This document shows, piece after piece, positions 1,441 to 19,600 of a stretch of DNA of 34,785 nt. Numbering within the stretch: the stretch's first letter is position 1; each line of letters begins with the position of its first letter. The notes below the pieces were generated by a model that worked only from the letters and a program-made list of their open reading frames with translations, had not been told where the DNA came from and made no database searches. Position numbers and translations under genes: made by a program. This stretch comes from a virus: UHGV virus genome UHGV-1780165. The stretch is one strand, 5' to 3'.

Positions 1441-1512
1441 GCTGCAAAGTGCTGGTGCTTTATGCCTGTGAAGTTTATAATTGTGTACACATAACGAGTA
1501 CACGAGGTGTTT

Positions 1513-1734
1513 ATGCAATCCATTAACTTCCGTACCGCGCGTGGCAACCTTTCTGAAGTGCTCAACAATGTTGAAGCCGGGGAAGAGGTTGAAATCACCC
1601 GCAGAGGCCGTGAGCCAGCAGTAATTGTCAGCAAGGCTACTTTCGAAGCCTACAAAAAAGCGGCGCTGGATGCTGAATTTGCATCCCTGTTTGACACCCT
1701 GGACTCCACCAACAAGGAACTGGTTAACCGATAA
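1513..1734 (+). CDS. phd: Phd antitoxin (prevent host death)
   Basis: 73 aa from ATG 1513 ([73 protein letters not shown]) matches P1 Phd as recalled; stop overlaps doc start (TAATG). Confidence 0.95.
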
Positions 1735-2114
1735 TGAGGCATATATCACCGGAAGAACTTATTGCGCTTCATGATGCGAATATAAGCCGCTACGGCGGCC
1801 TGCCGGGAATGTCTGATCCGGGTAGGGCAGAGGCCATTATCGGGAGAGTTCAGGCCAGAGTTGCCTACGAAGAGATCACCGACCTTTTCGAAGTCTCCGC
1901 CACCTACCTGGTGGCTACAGCGAGAGGGCATATATTCAATGATGCCAATAAGCGTACCGCGCTAAACAGTGCGCTGCTATTTCTACGCCGTAACGGGGTG
2001 CAGGTATTTGATTCACCTGAACTGGCAGACCTTACTGTAGGCGCTGCGACTGGCGAGATATCTGTATCTTCTGTCGCCGACACGTTACGTAGATTGTATG
2101 GTTCTGCGGAGTAG
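1734..2114 (+). CDS. doc: Doc toxin (death on curing), Fic-fold kinase
   Basis: 126 aa with Fic-type motif [11 protein letters not shown]; translationally coupled to phd. Confidence 0.95.
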
Positions 2115-2118
2115 ATTA

Positions 2119-2298
2119 ATGGCACGCAAATACAACAAATTGTCCCGTGAAGCGTTAAAGATGCTTCTTGATGGCGTGAGTCGCCGCAAGGTAAAGCAAT
2201 ACCTGGTTGGTAAGCAAATTGGAGTCAGGACCGCTATTGCTGTGTTATGCCGTCAGGAAATGGTTGTGCTTAAACAGAGAATGCCGGGCAGCAGATAA
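2119..2298 (+). CDS. pdcA: small post-doc protein (PdcA-position)
   Basis: Listed ORF 2098..2298; ATG at 2119 preceded by GGAG; assignment by position downstream of doc. Confidence 0.4.
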   Translation: MARKYNKLSREALKMLLDGVSRRKVKQYLVGKQIGVRTAIAVLCRQEMVVLKQRMPGSR

Positions 2299-2325
2299 AG
2301 CCCAATCAGTGATTAAAGGTGTGAT

Positions 2326-3369
2326 GTGAAAGCCGTAATTACTCCCTTTGTACAGAAAGAGCTTGGCCTCGCCACGTTCAAAGTGGATCAGGAGGTCAGA
2401 AAGCTGGTGGAGGCTGGCCGTAAATTTATTATGGAGCCGGTGCCGCGTGAGTTAATCGAGCACATGGAAGACGGCCTCGTTGTTACCGAGCAAACCATGG
2501 CAACAAATGAGGCGTTGCAGCCGTTTTTTAACAGCGATGAACTGTTTCGCCGTATTGGTGGAATTGACGCGCTGGTGGCGTGGTTGCGTAGGAAAGAGGG
2601 TCAATGCCAGGCCGCAGATCGTAGTTGGTGTGACAACCATATTGTCCACGCTGAACGAGACAATAGCGCGGTGTTGTTGTGCTGGCATCACGATAACCAT
2701 TACCGGATGCGTGGTTTTAATGAGCTGAAAGAAACGCTGCACAATAATCGCGTTAACTGGATACTGGATGTCGCCCGTCAGGAAATGGGCCTTTCAAATA
2801 GCCATGATTTAAGTATTCAGGAGCTGTGCTGGTGGGCTTTCATGCGCAACATGATGCACCTGATGCCGGAAGAAGTCTGCCGCATATCAATAAATAAGAT
2901 GAAGGCTACTCCGCAGGATAGCGGACCTCTGAAAGAGGCGGATATTCGCCCGTATGACGATCGCGCTACAGCATATGTTCAGATGATGGAAGAACGCGCC
3001 GCGCCGATGCGTGCAAAAGTATGCCCTGTGGATGTTGACGCCGACCCTGGCATGGCGCATTTCAAAATACCAAAACTTCAATCGCTAAAATTGCCCGAGT
3101 ACATGGATTTTGTGGCTTCCCGTCCATGCTGTGGCTGTGGAGCTGCGGGAGCTGGCGCTCACATTACGCCTTATATCGTTCGTCATAGTCGATTATGCGC
3201 GCATGACATTTATGCTGTTCCTCTGTGCCAGTCATGCCAGCGTGATATTGAGCGTGACCGCGATAATTGGGAGAAGACGCACGGTAGGCTGGCGATGCAT
3301 CAACGATTGTTCTTTGATTACGCGCTTGGAGTCGGCGCTATCACAAGTCATTCGTCGAGCGTTAGATAA
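2326..3369 (+). CDS. pdcB: PdcB-position protein with Cys-rich C-terminus
   Basis: 347-aa ORF with GTG start after AAAGGTG; C-terminal [12 protein letters not shown]...[17 protein letters not shown] cysteine cluster; position as in P1. Confidence 0.55.
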
Positions 3370-7870: not shown

Positions 7871-8109
7871 AATTATGCCTCACTGTATTGACAACACAGA
7901 GCCTGAAGCTCTGACCTACTGTTTCACCCATGATCCATGCTGGGGTAATCTAACAACATTGCGCTGTGTGTAAGATGAGCAATGCATAGCTGTAATGCCG
8001 TTGTATAAGGTTTCCCTGTTTGCTCATTTCCTTCTGAGCCGCTCTACAACGCTGAAGACACATTAAATAGTGAATCCAAAGTCGTATTACGAAACGGCGG
8101 CAAAACTAT

Positions 8110-8125
8110 AATTTATTAGAGCAAT
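8110..8125 (-). promoter_or_regulatory. C1 operator (reverse complement ATTGCTCTAATAAATT)
   Basis: Exact match to the operator consensus on the minus strand, upstream of coi-c1. Confidence 0.7.
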
Positions 8126-8192
8126 TGTCAAACAACTATGAAAAACAATCCAGTTTTTGGCTGGTGGAGTGGGATTTTTCTCTCAAAATTTA

Positions 8193-8209
8193 TTGCTCTA
8201 ATAATTCTT
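8193..8209 (+). promoter_or_regulatory. C1 operator ATTGCTCTAATAATTCT
   Basis: Near-consensus operator between coi and loxP. Confidence 0.65.
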
Positions 8210-8251
8210 GATTTTTATGCGCAGCTGGACGTAAACTCCTCTTCAGACCTA

Positions 8252-8285
8252 ATAACTTCGTATAGCATACATTATACGAAGTTAT
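8252..8285 (+). other. loxP recombination site
   Basis: Exact 34-bp ATAACTTCGTATA-GCATACAT-TATACGAAGTTAT. Confidence 0.98.
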
Positions 8286-8474
8286 CTTAAGGGTTATTGA
8301 ACATGATCAATTTACCTGTAAATCCATACAGTTCAATACCTTATCAGGTCAAATAGTGATCACTTGATCATTTGATCAAGGTAGCGCTACGTAAAATCTG
8401 CGAAATGTTGGCGGTGTTAGTCCTACAGATTTCGCGTAGCGCACTTAGCACCACCAATCAATCAGAGGTGAAAA

Positions 8475-8696
8475 ATGGGATATTCAGCTGCCAAAGTGTC
8501 CACTCATCTTGAGCTTGAGAAAAACCGTGGTTACTGGCGGGCAAAAGGGTTTGATCGTGATAGTTGTCAACTGTCATTATCGCGCGGTGAAGAGAAAATA
8601 GAACGCACGCGCGGTCGCTGGCGTTTCTATGACGAGAACCATAAACAGGTAAAGGCAGAGCCGATCCTGTACACTTTACTTAAAACCATTATCTGA
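8475..8696 (+). CDS. small basic protein between loxP and cre (hypothetical)
   Basis: 73-aa ORF with strong RBS (GAGGTG 7 nt upstream); ends 8 bp before cre. Confidence 0.4.
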   Translation: MGYSAAKVSTHLELEKNRGYWRAKGFDRDSCQLSLSRGEEKIERTRGRWRFYDENHKQVKAEPILYTLLKTII

Positions 8697-8703
8697 GTGT
8701 TAA

Positions 8704-9735
8704 ATGTCCAATTTACTGACCGTACACCAAAATTTGCCTGCATTACCGGTCGATGCAACGAGTGATGAGGTTCGCAAGAACCTGATGGACATGTTCAGGG
8801 ATCGCCAGGCGTTTTCTGAGCATACCTGGAAAATGCTTCTGTCCGTTTGCCGATCGTGGGCGGCATGGTGCAAGTTGAATAACCGGAAATGGTTTCCCGC
8901 AGAACCTGAAGATGTTCGCGATTATCTTCTATATCTTCAGGCGCGCGGTCTGGCAGTAAAAACTATCCAGCAACATTTGGGCCAGCTAAACATGCTTCAT
9001 CGTCGGTCCGGGCTGCCACGACCAAGTGACAGTAATGCTGTTTCACTGGTCATGCGACGGATCCGAAAAGAAAACGTTGATGCCGGTGAACGTGCAAAAC
9101 AGGCACTGGCGTTCGAACGCACTGATTTCGACCAGGTTCGTTCACTCATGGAAAATAGCGATCGCTGCCAGGATATACGTAATCTGGCATTTCTGGGGAT
9201 TGCTTATAACACCCTATTACGTATAGCCGAAATTGCCAGGATCAGGGTTAAAGATATCTCACGTACTGACGGTGGGAGAATGTTAATCCATATTGGCAGA
9301 ACGAAAACGCTGGTTAGCACCGCAGGTGTAGAGAAGGCACTTAGCCTGGGGGTAACTAAACTGGTCGAGCGATGGATTTCTGTCTCTGGTGTGGCTGATG
9401 ATCCGAATAACTACTTGTTTTGCCGTGTCAGAAAAAATGGTGTTGCCGCGCCATCTGCCACCAGCCAGCTATCAACTCGCGCCCTGGAAGGGATTTTTGA
9501 AGCAACTCATCGATTGATTTACGGCGCTAAGGATGACTCTGGTCAGAGATACCTGGCCTGGTCTGGACACAGTGCCCGTGTCGGAGCCGCGCGAGATATG
9601 GCCCGCGCCGGAGTTTCAATACCGGAGATCATGCAAGCTGGTGGCTGGACCAACGTAAATATTGTCATGAACTATATCCGTAACCTGGATAGTGAAACGG
9701 GGGCAATGGTGCGCCTGCTGGAAGATGGCGATTAG
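8704..9735 (+). CDS. cre: Cre tyrosine recombinase
   Basis: 343 aa beginning MSNLLTVHQNLPALPVDATSDEVRKNLMDMFRDRQAFSEHTWK and ending MVRLLEDGD; matches Cre as recalled. Confidence 0.98.
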   Translation: MSNLLTVHQNLPALPVDATSDEVRKNLMDMFRDRQAFSEHTWKMLLSVCRSWAAWCKLNNRKWFPAEPEDVRDYLLYLQARGLAVKTIQQHLGQLNMLHRRSGLPRPSDSNAVSLVMRRIRKENVDAGERAKQALAFERTDFDQVRSLMENSDRCQDIRNLAFLGIAYNTLLRIAEIARIRVKDISRTDGGRMLIHIGRTKTLVSTAGVEKALSLGVTKLVERWISVSGVADDPNNYLFCRVRKNGVAAPSATSQLSTRALEGIFEATHRLIYGAKDDSGQRYLAWSGHSARVGAARDMARAGVSIPEIMQAGGWTNVNIVMNYIRNLDSETGAMVRLLEDGD

Positions 9736-11065: not shown

Positions 11066-11734
11066 GTGGCTTTTCTTTTTTGTAGGGGCGCTATGGATAA
11101 GAAAATATGCGTTGTTTCGATGAGCGTCGGTAAACCGGCGTCAATGACTGCTGCATGGATCAACAACGAGCTGATAATGGCTGAGCGGACCAGCTACCCT
11201 GAACGCCGCCGCGATATGGAACTCCAGCTGCTGCGCGAATTGCGAGAAAAAGAGGAAAAGGGTTTTATCGTGCTGGTGGAAGAGGAAAACAGCTTTATTA
11301 CTGGTCGAGTTGGCCAGCGTGTAAGGTTGCGCGATCCCTTCATGAACGGCAGGCCGGTACTAATTGAGGCCATGCAGATTTATAAGGAGCTGGAACGCCA
11401 GAAAGCAATCAAGTTACCGCGCAAGGAATCCGGCAAATACATCCTCCACCAAAGCATCTTCGATTCCGAACACGATAAAAAAGGCGATGAATTTTTCAAC
11501 ATCAACTGGAGCGAAATAACGACAGAGCATGTTCTGACGTTACTCTGTTGCTTTGCGACGGAATACAACAACGTTGCCAGCGCAGACTACATCAGGGCAA
11601 TGGCTTGTGAAGTGGATAGTCGTGATGACTCATCGCTGATAGCGTCATATATAAACATCATCAAGAAAACTCAAATTATGGGATGCGCTAGAGTTCCTCA
11701 AGGAATACTCACCGGAAAGAATAATATTCTATAA
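11066..11734 (+). CDS. hypothetical protein at the position of P1 mat
   Basis: 222-aa ORF (alternative ATG at 11093); assignment by position only. Confidence 0.45.
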   Translation: MAFLFCRGAMDKKICVVSMSVGKPASMTAAWINNELIMAERTSYPERRRDMELQLLRELREKEEKGFIVLVEEENSFITGRVGQRVRLRDPFMNGRPVLIEAMQIYKELERQKAIKLPRKESGKYILHQSIFDSEHDKKGDEFFNINWSEITTEHVLTLLCCFATEYNNVASADYIRAMACEVDSRDDSSLIASYINIIKKTQIMGCARVPQGILTGKNNIL

Positions 11735-11751
11735 CCTACGAAGGTTATTTG
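11733..11751 (+). terminator. weak hairpin TAACCT-ACGA-AGGTTA followed by T-rich tract
   Basis: 6-bp stem then TTTGTTACTTTCT, immediately after the mat-position stop codon. Confidence 0.35.
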
Positions 11752-11778
11752 TTACTTTCTGCGTAAACCCACAACTCA

Positions 11779-11798
11779 CCTTCCTAAGTTAAGGAAGG
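11779..11798. terminator. hairpin CCTTCC-TAAGTTAA-GGAAGG between convergent genes
   Basis: Perfect 6-bp inverted repeat between the mat-position ORF (+) and the 346-aa ORF (-). Confidence 0.35.
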
Positions 11799-11831
11799 TA
11801 TTTATCATGAAGTTTAGACATAAGCGTATTA

Positions 11832-12872
11832 TTACATGGGATTAACCACAACCTTTCCATATATATCAAGTTTTGATTGTAATACGTTGAGGTGAGACAA
11901 TTCTTTATTCGAACTAACTTTATCTAAAATTATATTTTTATCTTTTTCAGTCATGTTATACCCTAAGGTAATTTGCTTGAATGCAGAAAAAGGAATTTTC
12001 TTTAAGTTAATTTCATGATAGTCATGAAAAACATCAGGATACTCATTTAATAGGCAATCATCAATCGATGGAGAGACAATGCTTCCTATTTTTCTCTCGC
12101 AATCAGCCAATGGAAAAATAATTCTACTTTCATTTTCAGGAAGCCACTCTTCACCTTTTGTATAAAGAAGCCTATTAATAAAAAGCTCGCGAACTGAATC
12201 TCGATTTAAGATTCCATGCAATGTATTATCTTTATTCTTTATATCTATATTCCTCGATGGCGCAGGATAGCCATTAAATCGCACAGCGCCTTTATAATAG
12301 GTTACAGATGCTCTATCTTCTGGATTATAACTAACATCACACGGCCGATATATTTTGAAAAAATCGTGTGTTTCATCGAAAACTACAGCAAACCCCTTTC
12401 CTATCGATGCATAATGAGTCCACATGTGTAGATTGCAATCACTTTTTGATAGAGAGAACACACCAAGATGACAGCTTACGGCTTCTACTAAATAATCGTT
12501 AAGGTACGTTACTATTTCTTGGAGTTTAGATTCATCATATGAATCCATTGAGGTAAAACCTTCATTGATTAACAAGTGTGGAAAATCCTCTCCGTATCGT
12601 TTCCCGCAAGGTTTTAAATAATACTCTAACTCTTGTATAGATGGGACATAAGATGGATCTCGTTGCATTTTCTTAAATTCATTTCTAGCCCATGCGTAAT
12701 CGGCTGGTGAAAATTTATTAAAAAATGGAAGAAGTCGCGACTCACTCGACGGATCATTAAGATACTTTGGTTGCGTTGCTCTAAAGAAACCATCCTCCAG
12801 ACAAGATGTTCTAATGTGCATGCCCGGCCAAGGTTTATCCATATAACTCTCGCCTATATATTTAACTAACAC
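11832..12872 (-). CDS. AT-rich 346-aa protein of unknown function in the slot where P1 has res/mod; candidate defence/abortive-infection protein
   Basis: Long uninterrupted ORF; visibly lower GC than flanks; no Walker A, methyltransferase or HNH motifs seen; internal core GVFSLSKSDCNLHMWTHYASIGKGFAVVFDETHDFF. Confidence 0.6.
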   Translation of the reverse strand: MLVKYIGESYMDKPWPGMHIRTSCLEDGFFRATQPKYLNDPSSESRLLPFFNKFSPADYAWARNEFKKMQRDPSYVPSIQELEYYLKPCGKRYGEDFPHLLINEGFTSMDSYDESKLQEIVTYLNDYLVEAVSCHLGVFSLSKSDCNLHMWTHYASIGKGFAVVFDETHDFFKIYRPCDVSYNPEDRASVTYYKGAVRFNGYPAPSRNIDIKNKDNTLHGILNRDSVRELFINRLLYTKGEEWLPENESRIIFPLADCERKIGSIVSPSIDDCLLNEYPDVFHDYHEINLKKIPFSAFKQITLGYNMTEKDKNIILDKVSSNKELSHLNVLQSKLDIYGKVVVNPM

Positions 12873-12893
12873 TGTATATCGATCCTGTTGTTT

Positions 12894-12914
12894 AAGCCCA
12901 TATCATATGGGCTT
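12894..12914. repeat. perfect palindrome AAGCCCATAT-C-ATATGGGCTT
   Basis: 10-bp arms with a 1-nt spacer, partly extended by TTT/TAAA; lies between the lxc stop and the 346-aa ORF start. Confidence 0.8.
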
Positions 12915-12924
12915 TAAATGATTA

Positions 12925-13173
12925 TTAATCAGCATTCAGAAGCAATGCGTTATCTATGATGATCTGCTCCCATTCTTCGAATGCCCGATCGCGGACACCT
13001 TGGGGAACACTGTTAGTTTTGAAATCGACGACCGTCCGCCATTTCCCGTCCGGGCGGTACATGCGCAGAGCTTTACTTCCCCCTTCCCTGCGCACCTCAA
13101 CGTTGTGCTTGTCAGCAAACTCTTGTAATGCTCGTAGCGTCCCATGCTTTACTGTGTAGTATCGCTTTTTCAA
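12925..13173 (-). CDS. lxc: Lxc-position protein (modulator of C1 repression)
   Basis: 82-aa ORF directly downstream of the ulx-position gene; backbone-like GC; positional assignment. Confidence 0.5.
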   Translation of the reverse strand: MKKRYYTVKHGTLRALQEFADKHNVEVRREGGSKALRMYRPDGKWRTVVDFKTNSVPQGVRDRAFEEWEQIIIDNALLLNAD

Positions 13174-13610
13174 GTTTTCTCTCCAGCCTGTGCTAAGGCT
13201 TCAACTTCCAAATCGTAAGACTCAAACTCATAGTCCTGGTCGTCAACCTCTTCAGGTACTGGCAGTAAATGCCAGGCTGAGTATATCTGACCATTATCAA
13301 AACGCTCCTGGCTGTAGAGCGTCGCAGCTATGAGCGTCAGCGCCGGGCGGTCATAACGGTAAATTTTGCGAACGTCACGGTCAACGAGACGACCGAAATT
13401 ACCATAACCGCGCTCCAGTAATAATTTTTTAATTTCCGGCCAGTATGGACCATAGCTGCGGTACAGGCGGGGATTTTTCAGTAATCGCCCGCGTAGCCCT
13501 GACAGGAAGAAATCAACGTATTCGTCTTCTGTCTTTCCTAACAACGCTGTACGGAGTACCGCCTCAAGATATGTTTTATTCGGTTTTATTGTATCAGATA
13601 GTGTGGCCAT
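13170..13610 (-). CDS. ulx: Ulx-position protein (DarB packaging accessory)
   Basis: 146-aa ORF immediately downstream of darB on the same strand; overlaps lxc start by 4 bp. Confidence 0.5.
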   Translation of the reverse strand: MATLSDTIKPNKTYLEAVLRTALLGKTEDEYVDFFLSGLRGRLLKNPRLYRSYGPYWPEIKKLLLERGYGNFGRLVDRDVRKIYRYDRPALTLIAATLYSQERFDNGQIYSAWHLLPVPEEVDDQDYEFESYDLEVEALAQAGEKT

Positions 13611-13643: not shown

Positions 13644-16600
13644 TTATGCGTATTGTTGGATGACGGCCAGAACGTCCGCCACGTTGTGTTTTGTCTCGAT
13701 AATCCACCAGTTACCCGGGAAATCGCTGTTCTTCGCCTTCGCTGGCAGCCAGCGAGCGCCGAATTTCGCCTTGATTGCGTCTTTCGCACGGAAAAGAACG
13801 CCTTTCATGCCTGAGGCTTCCTGAAGCCCAAATACCTCGCCAGCGGCGAATTTTGGTGCGTACATCATCTTCAGGTCGGCGGTGGATACGCGATAATTCA
13901 GACCAAGAGACTGAGCTATGCTGGTGGCATCACCCTGTATTGATGATAACTCTTCTTGTTTCTCGTTTCTGGCGGCAATTTCTTCCTCCGTGATGTTGCC
14001 AAGGGCCAGGTTTATCCGATCAGCGTCGGCCTGTTTCTCTTCATCGGTGCGCCCGGCAAGAACCGTGTTAATTCTCTGCAATATCTCCACATGATTCTTG
14101 CGCATGCTGAGCAATTCCGGCGTAACCTCGTTAAGATCCACCAGCCCAAGGATGGCAAGGTCGGAAAACATTGATACCAGGTTGTAGGTCATGCGATAGC
14201 TGAGTTGGCCATAGGCTGATGGCAACTGCACCGCATCCATTTGATAGGCATCCATAAATTTAGAGCCGTCGTTTACGACATCCGCAATTGCAGGTGTGAT
14301 TTTCCCTGTGGTGGCGGCCTCCCTGATTGCTGTTACCCATGATTGAGTCAGTGCGGCGACTGCATGATTCAGATTGGCTTCCCGTTCTGCTGCGATGCGC
14401 GCGCTTGCTGAGTCCATTGCCTGCTTGATCTCGGCTTTATTGCTGTAAATGCCAATGGTGCCAAACTGTGCTGTGGTGATCTCATAATCTGACGCCCGGA
14501 ACTCATGGGTACCGAAAATGGCATTGGTGACCTCAAGTTCAGAATCCCCGTTACGAGTAGCCCCCTGGCTTGTTTTCTCCGGCATTTTTGCGATCGCATC
14601 CGCTATTTTCTCCTGAATTGCTTCAGGGGATAGCGTATCTCCGTATGACGCGATTACATCGCCATAATTGGAGCCAAACAATTCAACCAGGAATGTTTCT
14701 GCCGAACGGATCTGGCGGTTATTCCCTTCCGACATCATACCAAGCACCCATTTTGCAATTGACGACTTCAGCGCGCCGTCACGGCGATCCGGGTAAACCG
14801 CATGCTTCAGTGGGTCCGTATAGGTACCAACAAAATCAATGCTATAGCCTGACTCTGTAGTCTGAACGCCGTACGAGTCAGTGATTTTGATCATGCCGCG
14901 CTGCTGGAAACGGTAGAAATCGTCACAGGAAATGATGTCGTTAATCCCGGCGATGGAGACGCCACCACTGATTTTCTGCATAACAGCATCTTCATCGGGA
15001 GTTACATCCACCTGTTTATCCAGCGTCTTCACATCCCAGTTACCCGATTTGGTGCCTTTGAAGGTAAAGATGATCTCCACGTCTGCGCGCTGGCTGTCGA
15101 AGTCCAGCGACTTAATGCGAACGATATCACCGGCACAATCGTAGTATTGGCCTACACGCCATGAGCGATCGCCGATAACAAGGAACTCACTCGCATGGTT
15201 AACCAGGTCAGGATCTACATCCAGAATGCCTTTATTTATTGCATCCTCCACCAGCGGGCGCAGGCGTTTGATATCCGTCGCGGCCTTCTGAGTACGGTTC
15301 AATAATTTCTCATAGCGGGAGATGGCTTGAGAGATATTAGCCTTGCGCTGAATGGCGCTTTTCAACGACGCGCGATACTGTGCTAACAACATACGGTCTG
15401 TGTGATGGACACTCCCCCAGCGGGCCTTCCAGTCTGCGTTATCCGCTGCCTTGGCCATTGCCGCCTGTTTGAATTTAGCTACCTCGGCGGTGGTCTTTTC
15501 AAGTTCCGCTTTGCTTCGCTCTAATTCAGCGGTAAGTACCTCCACATCCTCGCCAGCTGCGTGCTGCGCCTTGATGTAGTTCTGAAGGTCGATAGTAGCC
15601 TGTTCTTTCTGGCGAGCGCGTTGCGCGGCTTTCGCCTTATCCATTTGAACCTGCATCATTGCCAGACGTTCGCCATCATCCTTAGCGGTATACATCTGCA
15701 TTTCGATCATATCGTTGGCGTCGGCGTTCTCCATTTCAGACTTATCTGAGCGGAGGATATCGGAGATCCAGCCTGCTTTACGCTTCAGCGTCTTCAGTCG
15801 GTATTCATCGAAAGAACCCTTGCCGCAGTAGTAGTGAACGCGAACGCTTGCACGGTTGGAACCAACTCGGGCACCGCGACCGTTACGCTGTGCGATACTG
15901 GCTGGTGTCCATGGCAACGTCAGATGATGGATGTCAGTCGTTCCTCGATGCAGGTTGATACCCACCTCTGCCTTTTTGTTGCAGATGATGATCGGAGTCC
16001 GGCCCTCCTGGAAGTCGGCAGCAATCTTTTCCAGCCCACCCAGCGACATTTCATTTTGCTGCGCGATATAGGCGTCATACAGAGCCATTTGCTCGTTGTA
16101 TTTCGCTATCTGTGCATCTGTTGGTTCATCCGGTAGCTCTTTCGGTGGTTTAACCGCTTTCAGTTTCTTACCGGTTTTACCTGCCTCGGCAACCGTCTGA
16201 GCATTCAGGATCCCCACCTTTGAAGGTTCAAGGTTAAGAGCATTGCAGATAATGCGCTTGAGCTTCTGGTGTTGCGTTTTTTCATCGGTGAAGATGATTT
16301 GCTTACCTTCCGGGAAAAACTCCTTCAGCGTGGCAATCAGCTTCGCGTATTTGGGCGTAACGGGGTGAGTTACGGTCTGTTCGTCAATGCCAAACTTGGC
16401 CAGGCGCTTATTCACTTCCTGCTCAAATGCTTCCGGTACCTGCAACTGAATAAACTCGCCCTTATCTATCAGGGAGTATTGCGATTGCTGCGTGATCGAA
16501 TCATCACTGTCGTCGTCTTCGCTGGTGGCTTGTTTAGGCAAACTGTCCGCCAGCTGCTGCACCGCATCGGCGTACTCCGGCAGGAAACGATAGGTGATCC

Positions 16601-19600
16601 TGCGATAGTACAGGTCCATGTCAGTACATACGCGGTCCATATCCCTGATTATTGAGAAGATCGGACGGGCTTTCTCGTGCTCAATCACGCCGTCTTCATT
16701 GACCGAGGTCGTTACGCCATTGTTGGCTTTGGCTGCCGCTTCCGCCTGCTGACGCAATTCTTCATACGCCGCCAGTTGTTCTTCCGTAAGTGGTGCATCC
16801 TGCTGGTGTTCGTCCAGTTCCGGGATCTCCACGGTATCCTTAACGTCTTCCGCCGTTTTAAGCGTTGTCCAGCGATGGAATATGCCGCGCAGCGCATCAA
16901 GGTTTTCAAAGCCCACCAGCGCCATTTTTTCTTCAACTTCACCGCTGATTTTCTGTACCGTTTCCAGCCTGGTCTTGCCGAAGAATTTTACGAAGTCATC
17001 AGGACTGTAGATCCCCATCTTCTGCCAGTATTCCTTCGGCAGAACATGAGAAAGCATGTTGTATGCATCGATCGGGGTGTTAACGACTGGCGTTGCAGTC
17101 AGGAGAACCGGTCCGCGCCCACCATTCTTTTTCATCAGGTACGCGTTTTTAATTGCCATATCCCGCGCCGATTGCGCCACCGCGCTGGTGGGCAGATAGG
17201 CCAGTTGTGACGCTTCGCGACCATTTTTATAGCTATTGCGGTAGTTGTGACCTTCGTCAGCGATCACACTATCGAAGCCCATATCCTCAAAGTACGGATA
17301 CTTCTCTGCTTTTTCGGTGCCGGTATCTGAATACTCCGACAATACCCGGCGACGCGCGGCCTCTTTGCGGTGGGAGTCGGAGTCCATTGCGCTGGCTACG
17401 CGCCCGGCGGCAACGAAGTCATAAAGCATATCCTGTGCATGCTCATCTACGGTGTCATCACGTAGCGGAATGCGGGCGTATTGTTCTTTGGTAAACACGA
17501 CTGCACGGTAATTTGAGTGCGGGATCGCGTTCATCCGCGCCGTGATAGTGGCTTCATCTGCCAGCTTAAGAGCATCGCGCATAACTGGAGTGCCATCAGT
17601 ACCAAGAACAGGTTTACCGTTCTCATCGAGCACCGGCACCTGGCGAATCTGATCGCCATCCATCAGCACATCAAGACCGACGAACAGGTAGTTACTGAAT
17701 GCCTCTTCACTCAGGAATTCTTTTGCTTCGTAATACCAGTTTTCCAGCACTGATTTAGGCACTACATACGCAGTACGGGTGGAGCGACCGTTCTCATAGT
17801 TGAACGCCTCAAGCGCCAGCGCGGTCGTGGTTTTACCCAGCCCGGTGCCGAAGCCCAGGATGCCGCGCCCATCTTCGGACAGTCGGCGCACCTCGCTATT
17901 CTGGTAATCAAATGGCTGGCGCTTACCGCTTAATCCCTTCAACCCAAGCGGATCGCCAGAGTGTTCATACGGGATATTGCTATTGAACACATCGTTGTAT
18001 TTGGCAACCAGCTCATCGTAGCGATCGTGCGTCTTGATCCACTTATTGAACTGGTCCTCAAGCAGTGCCATCTGCTCGCGGTAGCCGTTCGCCGTCGCGC
18101 TATCTTTGCCACCGATACGCGCACCATTGAGATACTTTTCCAGCTGTGCCGGGAACCCGGTCGCGTTTTCACCTGATTTACGGTCCCACTCGTAGCGGAT
18201 CTCGCCTGTTTCTTTATCCTTGCGCTGGACGACACCGTATCGGTGCCCGACGAACAGACCATCACCACCGTGATAGGTGTCAGAAACCATTTCGTCGCCT
18301 TCCAGCTGCACTGACTGCACATAGCGAAGATCCGGATAGCCGTTTTCCTGCAAAAATTCCAGAATGACGGAACGGTCGAACCAACGGCTATTGAGCTTAA
18401 AGCGGATATTCTCTGCTGGCGTCTTGATGCGCTTCTCTTCGATCGCTGCCAGCTGATTAAGGACGTTGTTCTTTACTGGACCGTCGGGGAGTGTGGCAAG
18501 GAATTCCTGTTTTGGTACCACTATCTCGTTAATGTCGCCGCTGGTGGCGCGGGCGAACGGAACAATCCCGCCATACGGTGAAACCGCAATGCCAGGGGTG
18601 CTGGCCAATAAATTAAGCAACTCGTCATCACTGGCTGGCAGTTCGCCGGTAAACGCAAGGCGGAAATCATCGAGCTGGATTGGATCGCGAGTGAGATCAC
18701 TGTAGAGATAACGCAGGGTGTCCTGATAGCTGGTGGAGTCATAACTGGCGCTGGAATCATGCGTAACCAGTTTTCCTGTCAGCTCGTCAGAAATAGTGCC
18801 ATCCAGCTTAATTGCACCACGGAAAGCAAACCAGGCGCGCGCACCGCTCCCCGATAATTTCGCTATCGGACCGCGACCGGGGTTACCAAAACGGTCAATC
18901 TCTGCCTGCAAACGGGATACCAGAGAAAGGCGCTGCTGTTCGATTTGTTCAGCACTATGCCCGGCGGCCTTCATGTCCTGATATTCAATTAACATCCGGC
19001 CAATCATCGCCCCGCGATACAAGCGTTCACGGTATTTTTCAGGCTGGCTGTTAATCCAGTCCACCAGCTGCACCATATCGTCGCTGATTGATGTGGTGTA
19101 CTTATCGCGGACATTTGCCATCTGGGTAAATGTCATACCGAGACGGCCTTCTGTTGTAGTCAGGTTACGCTGAAGAGCCTCCCAGCTGTCCGCGCCATAA
19201 CTGGCAACATCAATCTTCAGCTCCTTCCCTGCATCAGCTTCAATCCAGCGACCACCAGCATATTTTTGCCATACGCCATTAATCAGGCGCATTTCCCCTT
19301 CATCAACAACGTCTGCGGTCGGTGACGGTTCAGCCATATTGAGCAAAGACCAGTCGATACGACTTTCGAAACGATGAATCAGCTTCGCTTTAAGAGCCTG
19401 GTTATCAATCTGCCCGTCGGCACGAACCTCAATACGCCCCTGGAATCCCTTCTCCTGAGTGCCATGAACAAACCGGCGGCCGTCCTTTTCAAACCACTTG
19501 CCAGAAATAAACGTTGGCCAAAGCACATTTGCCGATTCAAGAGTGCCTTCATCCACCAGGGGGATTTTCTCAGCCATCTCCGCCGGATGTTTGCGCATCA

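What the first reader, a model, noticed from the sequence alone, without database searches (positions are those of the whole stretch)
11832..12872. AT-rich single gene occupies the slot where P1 carries the EcoP1I res/mod system
Between the mat-position gene and lxc, where I recall P1 has the ~5 kb type III res/mod genes, this element has one 346-aa ORF. It is visibly more AT-rich than the flanking backbone, suggesting horizontal acquisition. It is co-oriented with and immediately downstream of the darB-ulx-lxc antirestriction operon. It is bounded by a perfect palindrome (12894..12914) on one side and hairpins (11733..11798) on the other. I see no Walker A, methyltransferase or HNH motifs. 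The core GVFSLSKSDCNLHMWTHYASIGKGFAVVFDETHDFF looks conserved-like; I associate an F-S...MW-x-HYA pattern with DUF2971-type proteins from defence islands, but that is an uncertain memory. Best hypothesis: a single-gene anti-phage, abortive-infection or superinfection-exclusion determinant swapped into a defence hotspot.
Basis: partly seen in the sequence, partly recalled or inferred. Interest (0 to 1): 0.85.

Follow-up and report, generated by a model that had tools for sequence, protein, structure and literature searches.

The report
ART-like defence candidate in P1 slot
In this P1-like phage-plasmid, the slot that holds the EcoP1I restriction system in P1 instead holds one foreign, AT-rich gene for a DUF2971 protein with a predicted ADP-ribosyltransferase fold, which is most likely a single-gene anti-phage determinant but belongs to an already recognised family.

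Summary
A 346-aa ORF (11832-12872, minus strand) lies between mat and lxc. Its GC is 0.35 against about 0.50 in the flanks. It sits in a 1311-bp segment (11614-12924) that differs between P1 relatives.

In the same slot, P1 and P7 carry type III restriction-modification. SJ46 carries CapRelSJ46, a validated anti-phage system. JL22 carries a PIN protein, another phage an EAL plus AraC pair, and RCS47 nothing.

Homologues sit in prophage cargo positions and next to retron-type and AbiL/AriA-like genes. One DUF2971 protein, lactococcal Aristaios, is a proven abortive-infection gene.

Best reading: a self-contained ART-type defence gene expressed from the prophage. Its target, trigger and phenotype are untested. 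RefSeq already names it, and it occupies 90 of 699 P1-like plasmids, so it is a new member of a known kind.

The parts
11832..12872 (-). Single gene for a 346-aa DUF2971 protein with a predicted ADP-ribosyltransferase fold. Candidate catalytic residues are R31, Y154 and E246-x-E248. The C-terminal alpha/beta domain spans about aa 285-346.
11614..12924 (.). Variable, horizontally exchanged segment of the mat-lxc slot (1311 bp, GC 0.352). It includes the last ~40 codons of mat as a divergent allele.
   Evidence: BLAST breakpoints against six P1 relatives. Junction sequences and GC.
12891..12917 (.). Cassette-specific palindrome or hairpin between the lxc stop and the ORF start. It has a 9-10 bp stem and no U-tract on the minus strand, so it probably allows read-through from lxc.
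   Evidence: Other cassettes carry different hairpins at the same position.
11734..11799 (.). Two hairpins between the convergent mat and ORF346 genes, forming a likely bidirectional terminator region.
   Evidence: Terminator-like site at 11778-11799 on +. Inverted repeats. Minus-strand RNA fold z = -4.69.
11066..11734 (+). mat, the left border of the slot. Backbone identity ends at about 11613, inside the gene.
12925..13173 (-). lxc, the right border of the slot. Backbone homology resumes exactly at its stop codon. It is the probable source of transcription into ORF346 (inferred).

Best explanation
ORF346 is accessory cargo of a P1-like prophage-plasmid. It encodes a cytoplasmic, single-polypeptide enzyme of the ADP-ribosyltransferase superfamily (DUF2971 family) and most likely acts as a single-gene anti-phage, abortive-infection-type determinant.

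Shown:
- The gene is real, intact and conserved.
- It is foreign in composition.
- It occupies a slot where P1 relatives swap defence cassettes.
- Its predicted fold is closest to the nucleic-acid-modifying ARTs DarT and Tpt1.
- R31 (strand 1), Y154 (after strand 2) and E248 (start of strand 5) are invariant across the family, and E246 is at least 90% conserved.
- No partner gene lies in the cassette.

Inferred:
- It is transcribed in the lysogen by read-through from the lxc promoters. Only 52 nt separate it from lxc, no sigma-70 match is predicted there, and the hairpin lacks a U-tract.
- The protein is held inactive in uninfected cells by auto-inhibition, because there is no antitoxin.
- A component of an infecting heterologous phage activates it.
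- It then uses NAD+ to ADP-ribosylate a target. Judging by its structural neighbours, the target is most likely DNA or RNA, or otherwise the transcription machinery.
- This blocks phage gene expression or replication, as reported for DarT and for the DUF2971 protein Aristaios, which blocks phage transcription.
For: Family and fold.
- Pfam DUF2971 scores above the gathering threshold, and all 28 diverse family members match it.
- Four PADLOC PDC-S31 models match, best E = 4e-16.
- The AF2 model has pLDDT 89.3 and pTM 0.84.
- R31, Y154 and E248 are invariant, and E246 is at least 90% conserved, down to 21% identity.
- The helical inserts between strands 1-2 and 4-5 match the published description of DUF2971 as an ART similar to DarT and AbiGi (PMC12522546).

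Precedent. Aristaios is a 316-aa single-gene DUF2971 abortive-infection system that affects phage transcription (PMC11381338, PMC13064643).

The slot.
- Other occupants are EcoP1I/EcoP7 type III restriction-modification, CapRelSJ46, which is validated (PMC9712102), and a PIN_12 protein with a partial PDC-S34 match.
- All cassettes are AT-rich, with GC 0.33-0.39.

Contexts of homologues.
- Salmonella: a P2-like prophage, between gpV and gpS on the opposite strand.
- Serratia: the end of a prophage.
- Klebsiella: an island carrying a retron-type RT.
- Klebsiella: an islet next to a HEC-04/AbiL/AriA-like ATPase.
- Vibrio: a plasmid, next to PIN_12 and nSTAND genes.

Abundance. The cassette is present in 90 of 699 PLSDB plasmids that carry lxc-ulx, and in 63 of the 699 complete E. 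coli genomes that carry lxc-ulx (5426 screened).
Against: - No phenotype, toxicity or enzymatic activity has been measured.
- I could not inspect the 3-D arrangement of R31, Y154 and E248, because no coordinates or superposition were available.
- The PDC-S31 matches cover only about half of the profiles, and PDC-S31 is itself an unvalidated candidate.
- Aristaios is a distant relative from a Gram-positive host, and its sequence was not compared here.
- The most frequent slot occupant (EAL plus AraC-HTH, 149 plasmids) is not a known defence system, so the slot does not hold defence genes exclusively.
- The gene lies directly downstream of an anti-restriction operon, which also fits a counter-defence role.
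Confidence: 0.55

Rival explanations
1. Counter-defence or host-takeover enzyme. The ART acts for the phage as a functional extension of the darB-ulx-lxc anti-restriction block. It would modify a host defence or transcription component during P1 infection, as T4 Alt/ModA/ModB or the ART-type anti-CRISPR AcrIF11 do (examples from my own knowledge).
For: The gene is co-oriented with and 52 nt downstream of lxc/ulx/darB, and no promoter of its own is predicted. The ART fold is used by phages for host takeover. In the Vibrio plasmid the homologue lies a few kb from traY, possibly near the leading region.
Against: Other occupants of the same slot are defence systems, not anti-defence. Homologues occur in chromosomal islets and in prophage cargo positions, on the strand opposite to the late genes. 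They lie next to retron-type and AbiL/AriA-like genes. The only tested family member is an abortive-infection gene. The family matches a candidate listed in PADLOC's defence database.
Confidence: 0.15
2. Competition or addiction toxin. The ART mainly stabilises the plasmid prophage or excludes related mobile elements (superinfecting P1-like phages or plasmids), rather than defending against unrelated lytic phages.
For: It is carried on a low-copy plasmid prophage. DarT-like enzymes are toxins. The slot is single-occupancy and turns over between relatives.
Against: No antitoxin gene lies in the cassette, and no macrodomain or ADP-ribosylhydrolase is annotated anywhere on the 100%-identical plasmid. 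P1-like elements already carry phd-doc. Homologues also sit in integrated prophages and in chromosomes.
Confidence: 0.1
3. Cargo with another or no current function. Examples are a secreted or virulence-type ART effector, as proposed for some Legionella DUF2971 proteins, or a catalytically inert relic.
For: The Legionella survey predicts about 18% of DUF2971 proteins to be effectors. The function of the family is unproven.
Against: There is no secretion context. The reading frame is intact in 88 plasmids at 95-100% identity. Catalytic-type residues are invariant. Comparison with the allele in phage record MH422554 gives dN/dS of about 0.2, but from only 9 differences, so the power is low.
Confidence: 0.08

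Closest known systems
Aristaios (Lactococcus plasmid pUCCL641_199; Grafakou et al. 2024, PMC11381338)
   Different: Aristaios has a measured abortive-infection phenotype and blocks phage transcription. ORF346 has no data.
DarT of DarTG toxin-antitoxin systems (PDB 7yk3, 7omv, 8baq)
   Different: There is no DarG macrodomain antitoxin next to the gene or elsewhere on the plasmid. There is no Pfam DarT hit even at E of 10 or less. ORF346 is about 130 aa longer, with two large helical inserts and an extra C-terminal domain. Motif I is an invariant Arg.
PADLOC candidate PDC-S31
   Same: Four PDC-S31 HMMs match (E from 4e-16 to 5e-6). It is a single-gene candidate in PADLOC's defence database.
   Different: The matches cover only about 25-56% of the profiles. 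Shorter relatives such as P0123 match far better (5e-27), so ORF346 belongs to a divergent 346-350-aa branch. I found no paper that validates PDC-S31.
CapRelSJ46 (Salmonella phage SJ46; Zhang et al. 2022, PMC9712102)
   Same: It occupies the identical mat-lxc slot of a P1-like phage-plasmid as an AT-rich single-gene cassette. It is a self-contained toxin without a separate antitoxin, and it is prophage-encoded defence.
   Different: Its chemistry is unrelated (a RelA/SpoT tRNA pyrophosphokinase) and it lies on the opposite strand. Its trigger and mechanism are known.
EcoP1I / EcoP7 type III restriction-modification (P1, P7)
   Same: The same slot and the same orientation. It is lysogen-expressed defence cargo of the same backbone.
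   Different: It is a two-gene, 5-6 kb restriction-modification system. ORF346 has no methyltransferase, helicase or nuclease domains.

Membership tests
Pfam DUF2971 (PF11185) | HMM score at or above the curated gathering threshold | tested here: met
   28.3 bits against a cut-off of 22, covering aa 150-251 and the full profile 1-89. All 28 aligned relatives also match. RefSeq names the protein 'DUF2971 domain-containing protein'.
ADP-ribosyltransferase superfamily | Split beta-sheet ART fold | tested here: met
ADP-ribosyltransferase superfamily | Conserved catalytic set: H/R on strand 1, Y or S-x-S at strand 2, and E or ExE at strand 5 | tested here: inconclusive
   R31, Y154 and E248 are invariant and E246 is at least 90% conserved in 28 sequences down to 21% identity. 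S140 is invariant only within the close subfamily. The residues lie on or next to the expected strands of the model. Their spatial arrangement around an NAD+ pocket could not be inspected.
ADP-ribosyltransferase superfamily | NAD+ binding and ADP-ribosyl transfer | not testable with these tools
   This requires biochemistry.
DarTG toxin-antitoxin | Adjacent DarG macrodomain antitoxin | tested here: not met
   The 1311-bp cassette holds only ORF346. No macrodomain or ADP-ribosylhydrolase is annotated on the identical 96-kb plasmid.
DarTG toxin-antitoxin | Sequence membership in the DarT family (Pfam DarT/DUF4433) | tested here: not met
   No hit to any ART Pfam family other than DUF2971 at E of 10 or less, for ORF346 or for 27 relatives.
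PADLOC PDC-S31 | Match to the PDC-S31 HMMs with adequate coverage | tested here: inconclusive
   The E-values are good (4e-16, 2e-14), but profile coverage is only about 25-56%. PADLOC's own coverage rules were not run.
Aristaios-type single-gene DUF2971 defence | Stand-alone DUF2971 gene on a mobile element | tested here: met
Aristaios-type single-gene DUF2971 defence | Measured anti-phage (abortive infection) phenotype | not testable with these tools
   This requires phage challenge experiments.
Type III restriction-modification (the P1 occupant of the slot) | Mod methyltransferase plus Res helicase-nuclease | tested here: not met
   No such domains are found. There is no DNA similarity to P1/P7 res-mod.

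The most novel reading that the evidence does not exclude
ORF346 would be the E. coli-tractable prototype of a very large family (7947 clusters at 50% identity) of antitoxin-less, DarT-like ADP-ribosyltransferases. Such enzymes would be auto-inhibited, be switched on by a phage cue, and modify nucleic acid. The P1 mat-lxc slot would be a general single-cassette immunity locus, so its other common but uncharacterised occupants (the PIN_12 protein and the EAL plus AraC pair) would also be new anti-phage systems.
Probability: 0.25. Interest if true: 0.7.

Novelty: new member of a known kind. Interest (0 to 1): 0.45.

Why it matters
P1-like phage-plasmids occur in about 13% of complete E. coli genomes (699 of 5426 carry lxc-ulx). 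This cassette is one of the commonest alleles of their mat-lxc slot: 90 plasmids, against 108 with EcoP1I-like res and 22 with CapRelSJ46.

If it protects against phages, it adds an ART-type, antitoxin-free immunity gene to the E. coli repertoire. It would also give a genetically easy system (P1, E. coli) for finding the target and trigger of the DUF2971 family, for which no molecular mechanism is known.

It would further mark the mat-lxc slot as a place to mine for new single-gene systems.

Tried and rejected
Searches that found nothing.
- Foldseek against the PDB and against BFVD viral models: no match with E of 0.001 or less.
- Family profile against all PDB sequences: 0 hits at E of 10 or less.
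- NCBIfam: no family.
- Pfam at E of 10 or less on 28 members: only DUF2971, with no DarT or AbiGi.
- Consensus promoter scan: no sigma-70 site between lxc and the ORF, so an own-promoter model was dropped in favour of read-through.
- The fold of the upstream hairpin region is not exceptional (z = -0.75), so I make no riboswitch or attenuator claim.

Literature.
- 'PDC-S31' gave no papers.
- PF11185/IPR021352 gave only the two papers already found.
- No paper I read describes the mat-lxc slot explicitly as a hotspot.
- The P2 hotspot papers do not mention the gpV-gpS position.

Weak or rejected lines.
- dN/dS between two alleles has low power: 9 differences, ratio 0.2.
- I rejected a remnant of res/mod (no similarity), a DarTG module (no DarG), and a structural or core P1 gene (absent from P1, P7 and RCS47).

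Limitation. The counts of alternative cassettes in PLSDB were not individually checked to lie in the slot. The res count includes non-Escherichia plasmids.

Full report
**1. Observation**

The window is a P1-like phage-plasmid backbone. The gene order is cre (8704-9735), cra, ref, mat (11066-11734, +), then on the minus strand a 346-aa ORF (11832-12872), lxc (12925-13173), ulx (13170-13610) and darB (13644-20411).

The ORF stands out in composition. It has GC 0.351 and GC3 0.277, whereas the neighbouring genes have GC 0.47-0.52 and GC3 0.46-0.58. The lowest GC of any 1041-bp window that does not touch the cassette is 0.418.

The palindrome at 12891-12917 and the hairpins at 11734-11799 are present. 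The region downstream of the ORF is strongly structured as RNA (z = -4.69). The only plus-strand ORFs inside the interval are 44 and 71 aa, so the minus-strand ORF is the gene.

**2. The slot is an exchange site**

BLAST of 11401-13300 against six relatives shows backbone identity (92-98%) ending at about 11613, inside mat and about 40 codons before its stop. Identity resumes exactly at the lxc stop codon, 12925.

The interval between those points holds different content in each relative:

| Element | Interval length | Content |
|---|---|---|
| RCS47 | 160 bp | empty; mat and lxc are 39 bp apart |
| SJ46 | 1392 bp | a 373-aa RelA/SpoT protein |
| JL22 | 1184 bp | a 316-aa PIN_12 protein |
| Ro157c2YLVW | 1890 bp | an EAL protein plus an AraC-type regulator |
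| P7 | 5203 bp | EcoP7 res/mod |
| P1 | 6402 bp | EcoP1I res/mod with IS5 |

All filled cassettes are AT-rich (GC 0.33-0.39) against a backbone of about 0.50, and several cassettes carry their own, different hairpin sequence next to the lxc stop.

The SJ46 protein is CapRelSJ46, an experimentally validated fused toxin-antitoxin anti-phage system (PMC9712102). It matches PADLOC PDC-S33 at 7e-87.

The window's mat 3' end is a diverged allele, not unrelated sequence. Compare ...VPQGILTGKNNIL with ...VPRGELTGKGNYL. The cassette was therefore probably brought in by homologous recombination with a divergent P1 relative.

**3. How common the cassette is**

The identical cassette occurs in two phage records, MH422554 and MH445380, at 98.5% identity. 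The ORF is not annotated in either.

It also occurs in 90 PLSDB plasmids from Escherichia, Salmonella, Shigella and Klebsiella, and in 63 of 5426 complete E. coli genomes, almost always on plasmids.

The flanking lxc-ulx backbone is in 699 PLSDB plasmids and in 699 of 5426 complete E. coli genomes. The allele frequency is therefore about 9-13%.

For comparison, these cassettes occur in the following numbers of PLSDB plasmids. The positions were not individually verified.

| Cassette | Plasmids |
|---|---|
| CapRelSJ46 | 22 |
| PIN_12 | 23 |
| EcoP1I-like res | 108 |
| EAL/AraC | 149 |

**4. What the protein is**

- Pfam gives DUF2971 (PF11185) above threshold, over aa 150-251.
- PADLOC gives four PDC-S31 models, best 4e-16, with partial coverage.
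- PHROGs gives phrog_1762, of unknown function.
- NCBIfam gives nothing.
- RefSeq calls it 'DUF2971 domain-containing protein'.

The closest relatives outside the P1 cassette are only 53% identical. They come from Klebsiella, Serratia, Vibrio, Shewanella and Salmonella.

A profile search of 1.84 billion representatives finds 7947 clusters at E of 1e-3 or less, but only 40 at 1e-30 or less. This is a divergent 346-350-aa branch of a very large family.

**5. Structure and candidate catalytic residues**

AlphaFold with a 25-sequence alignment gives pLDDT 89.3 and pTM 0.84.

In an alignment reaching 21% identity, the invariant residues are K4, R31, D40, Y154, G160, K239, W243, E248, R250 and G304. 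E246 is at least 90% conserved.

- R31 lies on strand 29-33.
- Y154 follows strand 136-142 (G-V-F-S-L-S).
- E246-x-E248 opens strand 248-254.

Large helical inserts lie between strands 1-2 and 4-5. This is the architecture published for DUF2971 as a DarT/AbiGi-like ART with a conserved Tyr and an ExE motif (PMC12522546). Here motif I is an invariant Arg. I could not superpose structures, so the catalytic geometry is inferred.

**6. Precedent and genomic company**

Aristaios is a 316-aa single-gene DUF2971 protein from a lactococcal plasmid. It is an experimentally shown abortive-infection system that interferes with phage transcription (PMC11381338, PMC13064643).

Homologues of ORF346 sit in the following places:

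- In a Salmonella P2-like prophage, between the baseplate gene gpV and the tail gene gpS, on the opposite strand.
- At the end of a Serratia prophage, beside smpB.
- In a Klebsiella AlpA/MobA island that also carries a retron-type reverse transcriptase (RT_VI, 6e-63).
- In a Klebsiella islet next to a HEC-04/AbiL/AriA-like ATPase.
- On a Vibrio conjugative plasmid, directly followed by a PIN_12 protein and nSTAND genes. PIN_12 is the same Pfam family as the JL22 slot occupant, though only 23% identical.

**7. Mechanism proposed**

The gene has no partner. The cassette holds nothing else, and no macrodomain or ADP-ribosylhydrolase is annotated on the 100%-identical plasmid pMTY1586_IncY.

Only 52 nt separate it from lxc, no sigma-70 match is found there, and the intervening hairpin lacks a U-tract. 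I therefore infer expression in the lysogen by read-through from the lxc promoters that P1 annotation places inside ulx.

I propose an auto-inhibited ART that is activated by infection and ADP-ribosylates nucleic acid or the expression machinery, aborting the infection. The fold, the conserved residues, the slot and the neighbourhood are shown. Expression, activation, target and phenotype are inferred.

**8. Rivals**

A counter-defence ART extending the dar operon is the main alternative. It is favoured by position only. The identity of the other slot occupants, the chromosomal and prophage-cargo contexts, and the Aristaios phenotype all argue against it.

An addiction or exclusion toxin and a non-defence cargo are less likely; the reasons are given in the rival explanations.

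**9. Comparison and novelty**

ORF346 is a member of Pfam DUF2971. It is not a DarTG module, because there is no DarG and no DarT sequence match. It is related to, but poorly covered by, the PDC-S31 models.

The family, its predicted ART nature, one validated defence member, and the presence of varied defence systems on P1-like elements (bioRxiv 10.1101/2025.09.12.675607) are all already public. The finding is therefore a new member of a known kind.

What is not in the papers I could search is the explicit description of mat-lxc as a single-cassette immunity slot, and any test of this enterobacterial DUF2971 branch.

**10. Verdict**

Interest is moderate at 0.45: this is a good experimental lead rather than a surprise.

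Noticed in passing
window 12842-12872; NZ_CP135714.1 52295-53335: Databases disagree on the start codon. PLSDB/older RefSeq gives 346 aa from the GTG (WP_024188256.1). The current RefSeq copy gives 336 aa from an internal ATG at codon 11 (WP_023352828.1). The N-terminal MLVKY is conserved across the family, K4 is invariant, and it forms the first beta-strand of the model. This favours the GTG start.
   Followed up: partly
L001 (MH422554.1) 2041-3230; also MH445380.1: In both GenBank phage records that carry this cassette, the ORF is not annotated at all. This leaves a 1.19-kb gene-free gap between mat and lxc.
   Followed up: yes
window 11614-11734: The left recombination breakpoint lies inside mat. 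The last ~40 codons are a diverged allele, still homologous at protein level to the P1/RCS47 version. The Ro157c2YLVW mat 3' end is different again. Whether the Mat C-terminus co-varies functionally with the cassette is unknown.
   Followed up: partly
L005 (MH160767.1) 1482-3056; 149 PLSDB plasmids: By count, the commonest alternative cassette matched in PLSDB (slot position not individually verified) is an EAL-domain protein (199 aa) plus a divergently oriented AraC-type regulator (240 aa). It has no PADLOC match. A c-di-GMP phosphodiesterase module in a slot otherwise filled with defence genes is unexplained.
   Followed up: partly
L004 (JL22) 1378-2328; L019 9093-10100: A PIN_12 protein fills the slot in JL22 and in 23 plasmids. 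A distant PIN_12 protein (23% identity) lies immediately downstream of the DUF2971 homologue on a Vibrio conjugative plasmid. The two gene types are alternatives in P1 and neighbours elsewhere.
   Followed up: partly
slot occupants in window, L003, L004: Three consecutive PADLOC single-gene candidates map to this one slot: PDC-S31 (window), PDC-S33 (CapRelSJ46, since validated) and PDC-S34 (partial, the JL22 PIN protein).
   Followed up: no
right junctions next to the lxc stop in window, L002, L003, L004: The window, SJ46 and JL22 cassettes and the 'empty' RCS47 allele each carry a different GC-rich hairpin directly next to the lxc stop codon. No such hairpin was evident in the P1, P7 or Ro157c2YLVW junctions. 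The function is conserved but the sequences are unrelated, which suggests each cassette brings its own terminator or insulator.
   Followed up: partly
window 8001-8500, 1-500 and 33501-34000: These are other AT-rich stretches (GC 0.38-0.41) in the window, outside the finding. They were not examined.
   Followed up: no
L015 8001-9050 (Salmonella P2-like prophage): The DUF2971 homologue P0036 sits alone on the opposite strand between gpV (baseplate spike) and gpS (tail completion), in the middle of the late operon. It is recorded in 121 index blocks of the assembly collection. From my own knowledge this is the position of the non-essential orf30 in P2. It is not the gpA-gpQ hotspot described by Rousset et al..
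   Followed up: partly
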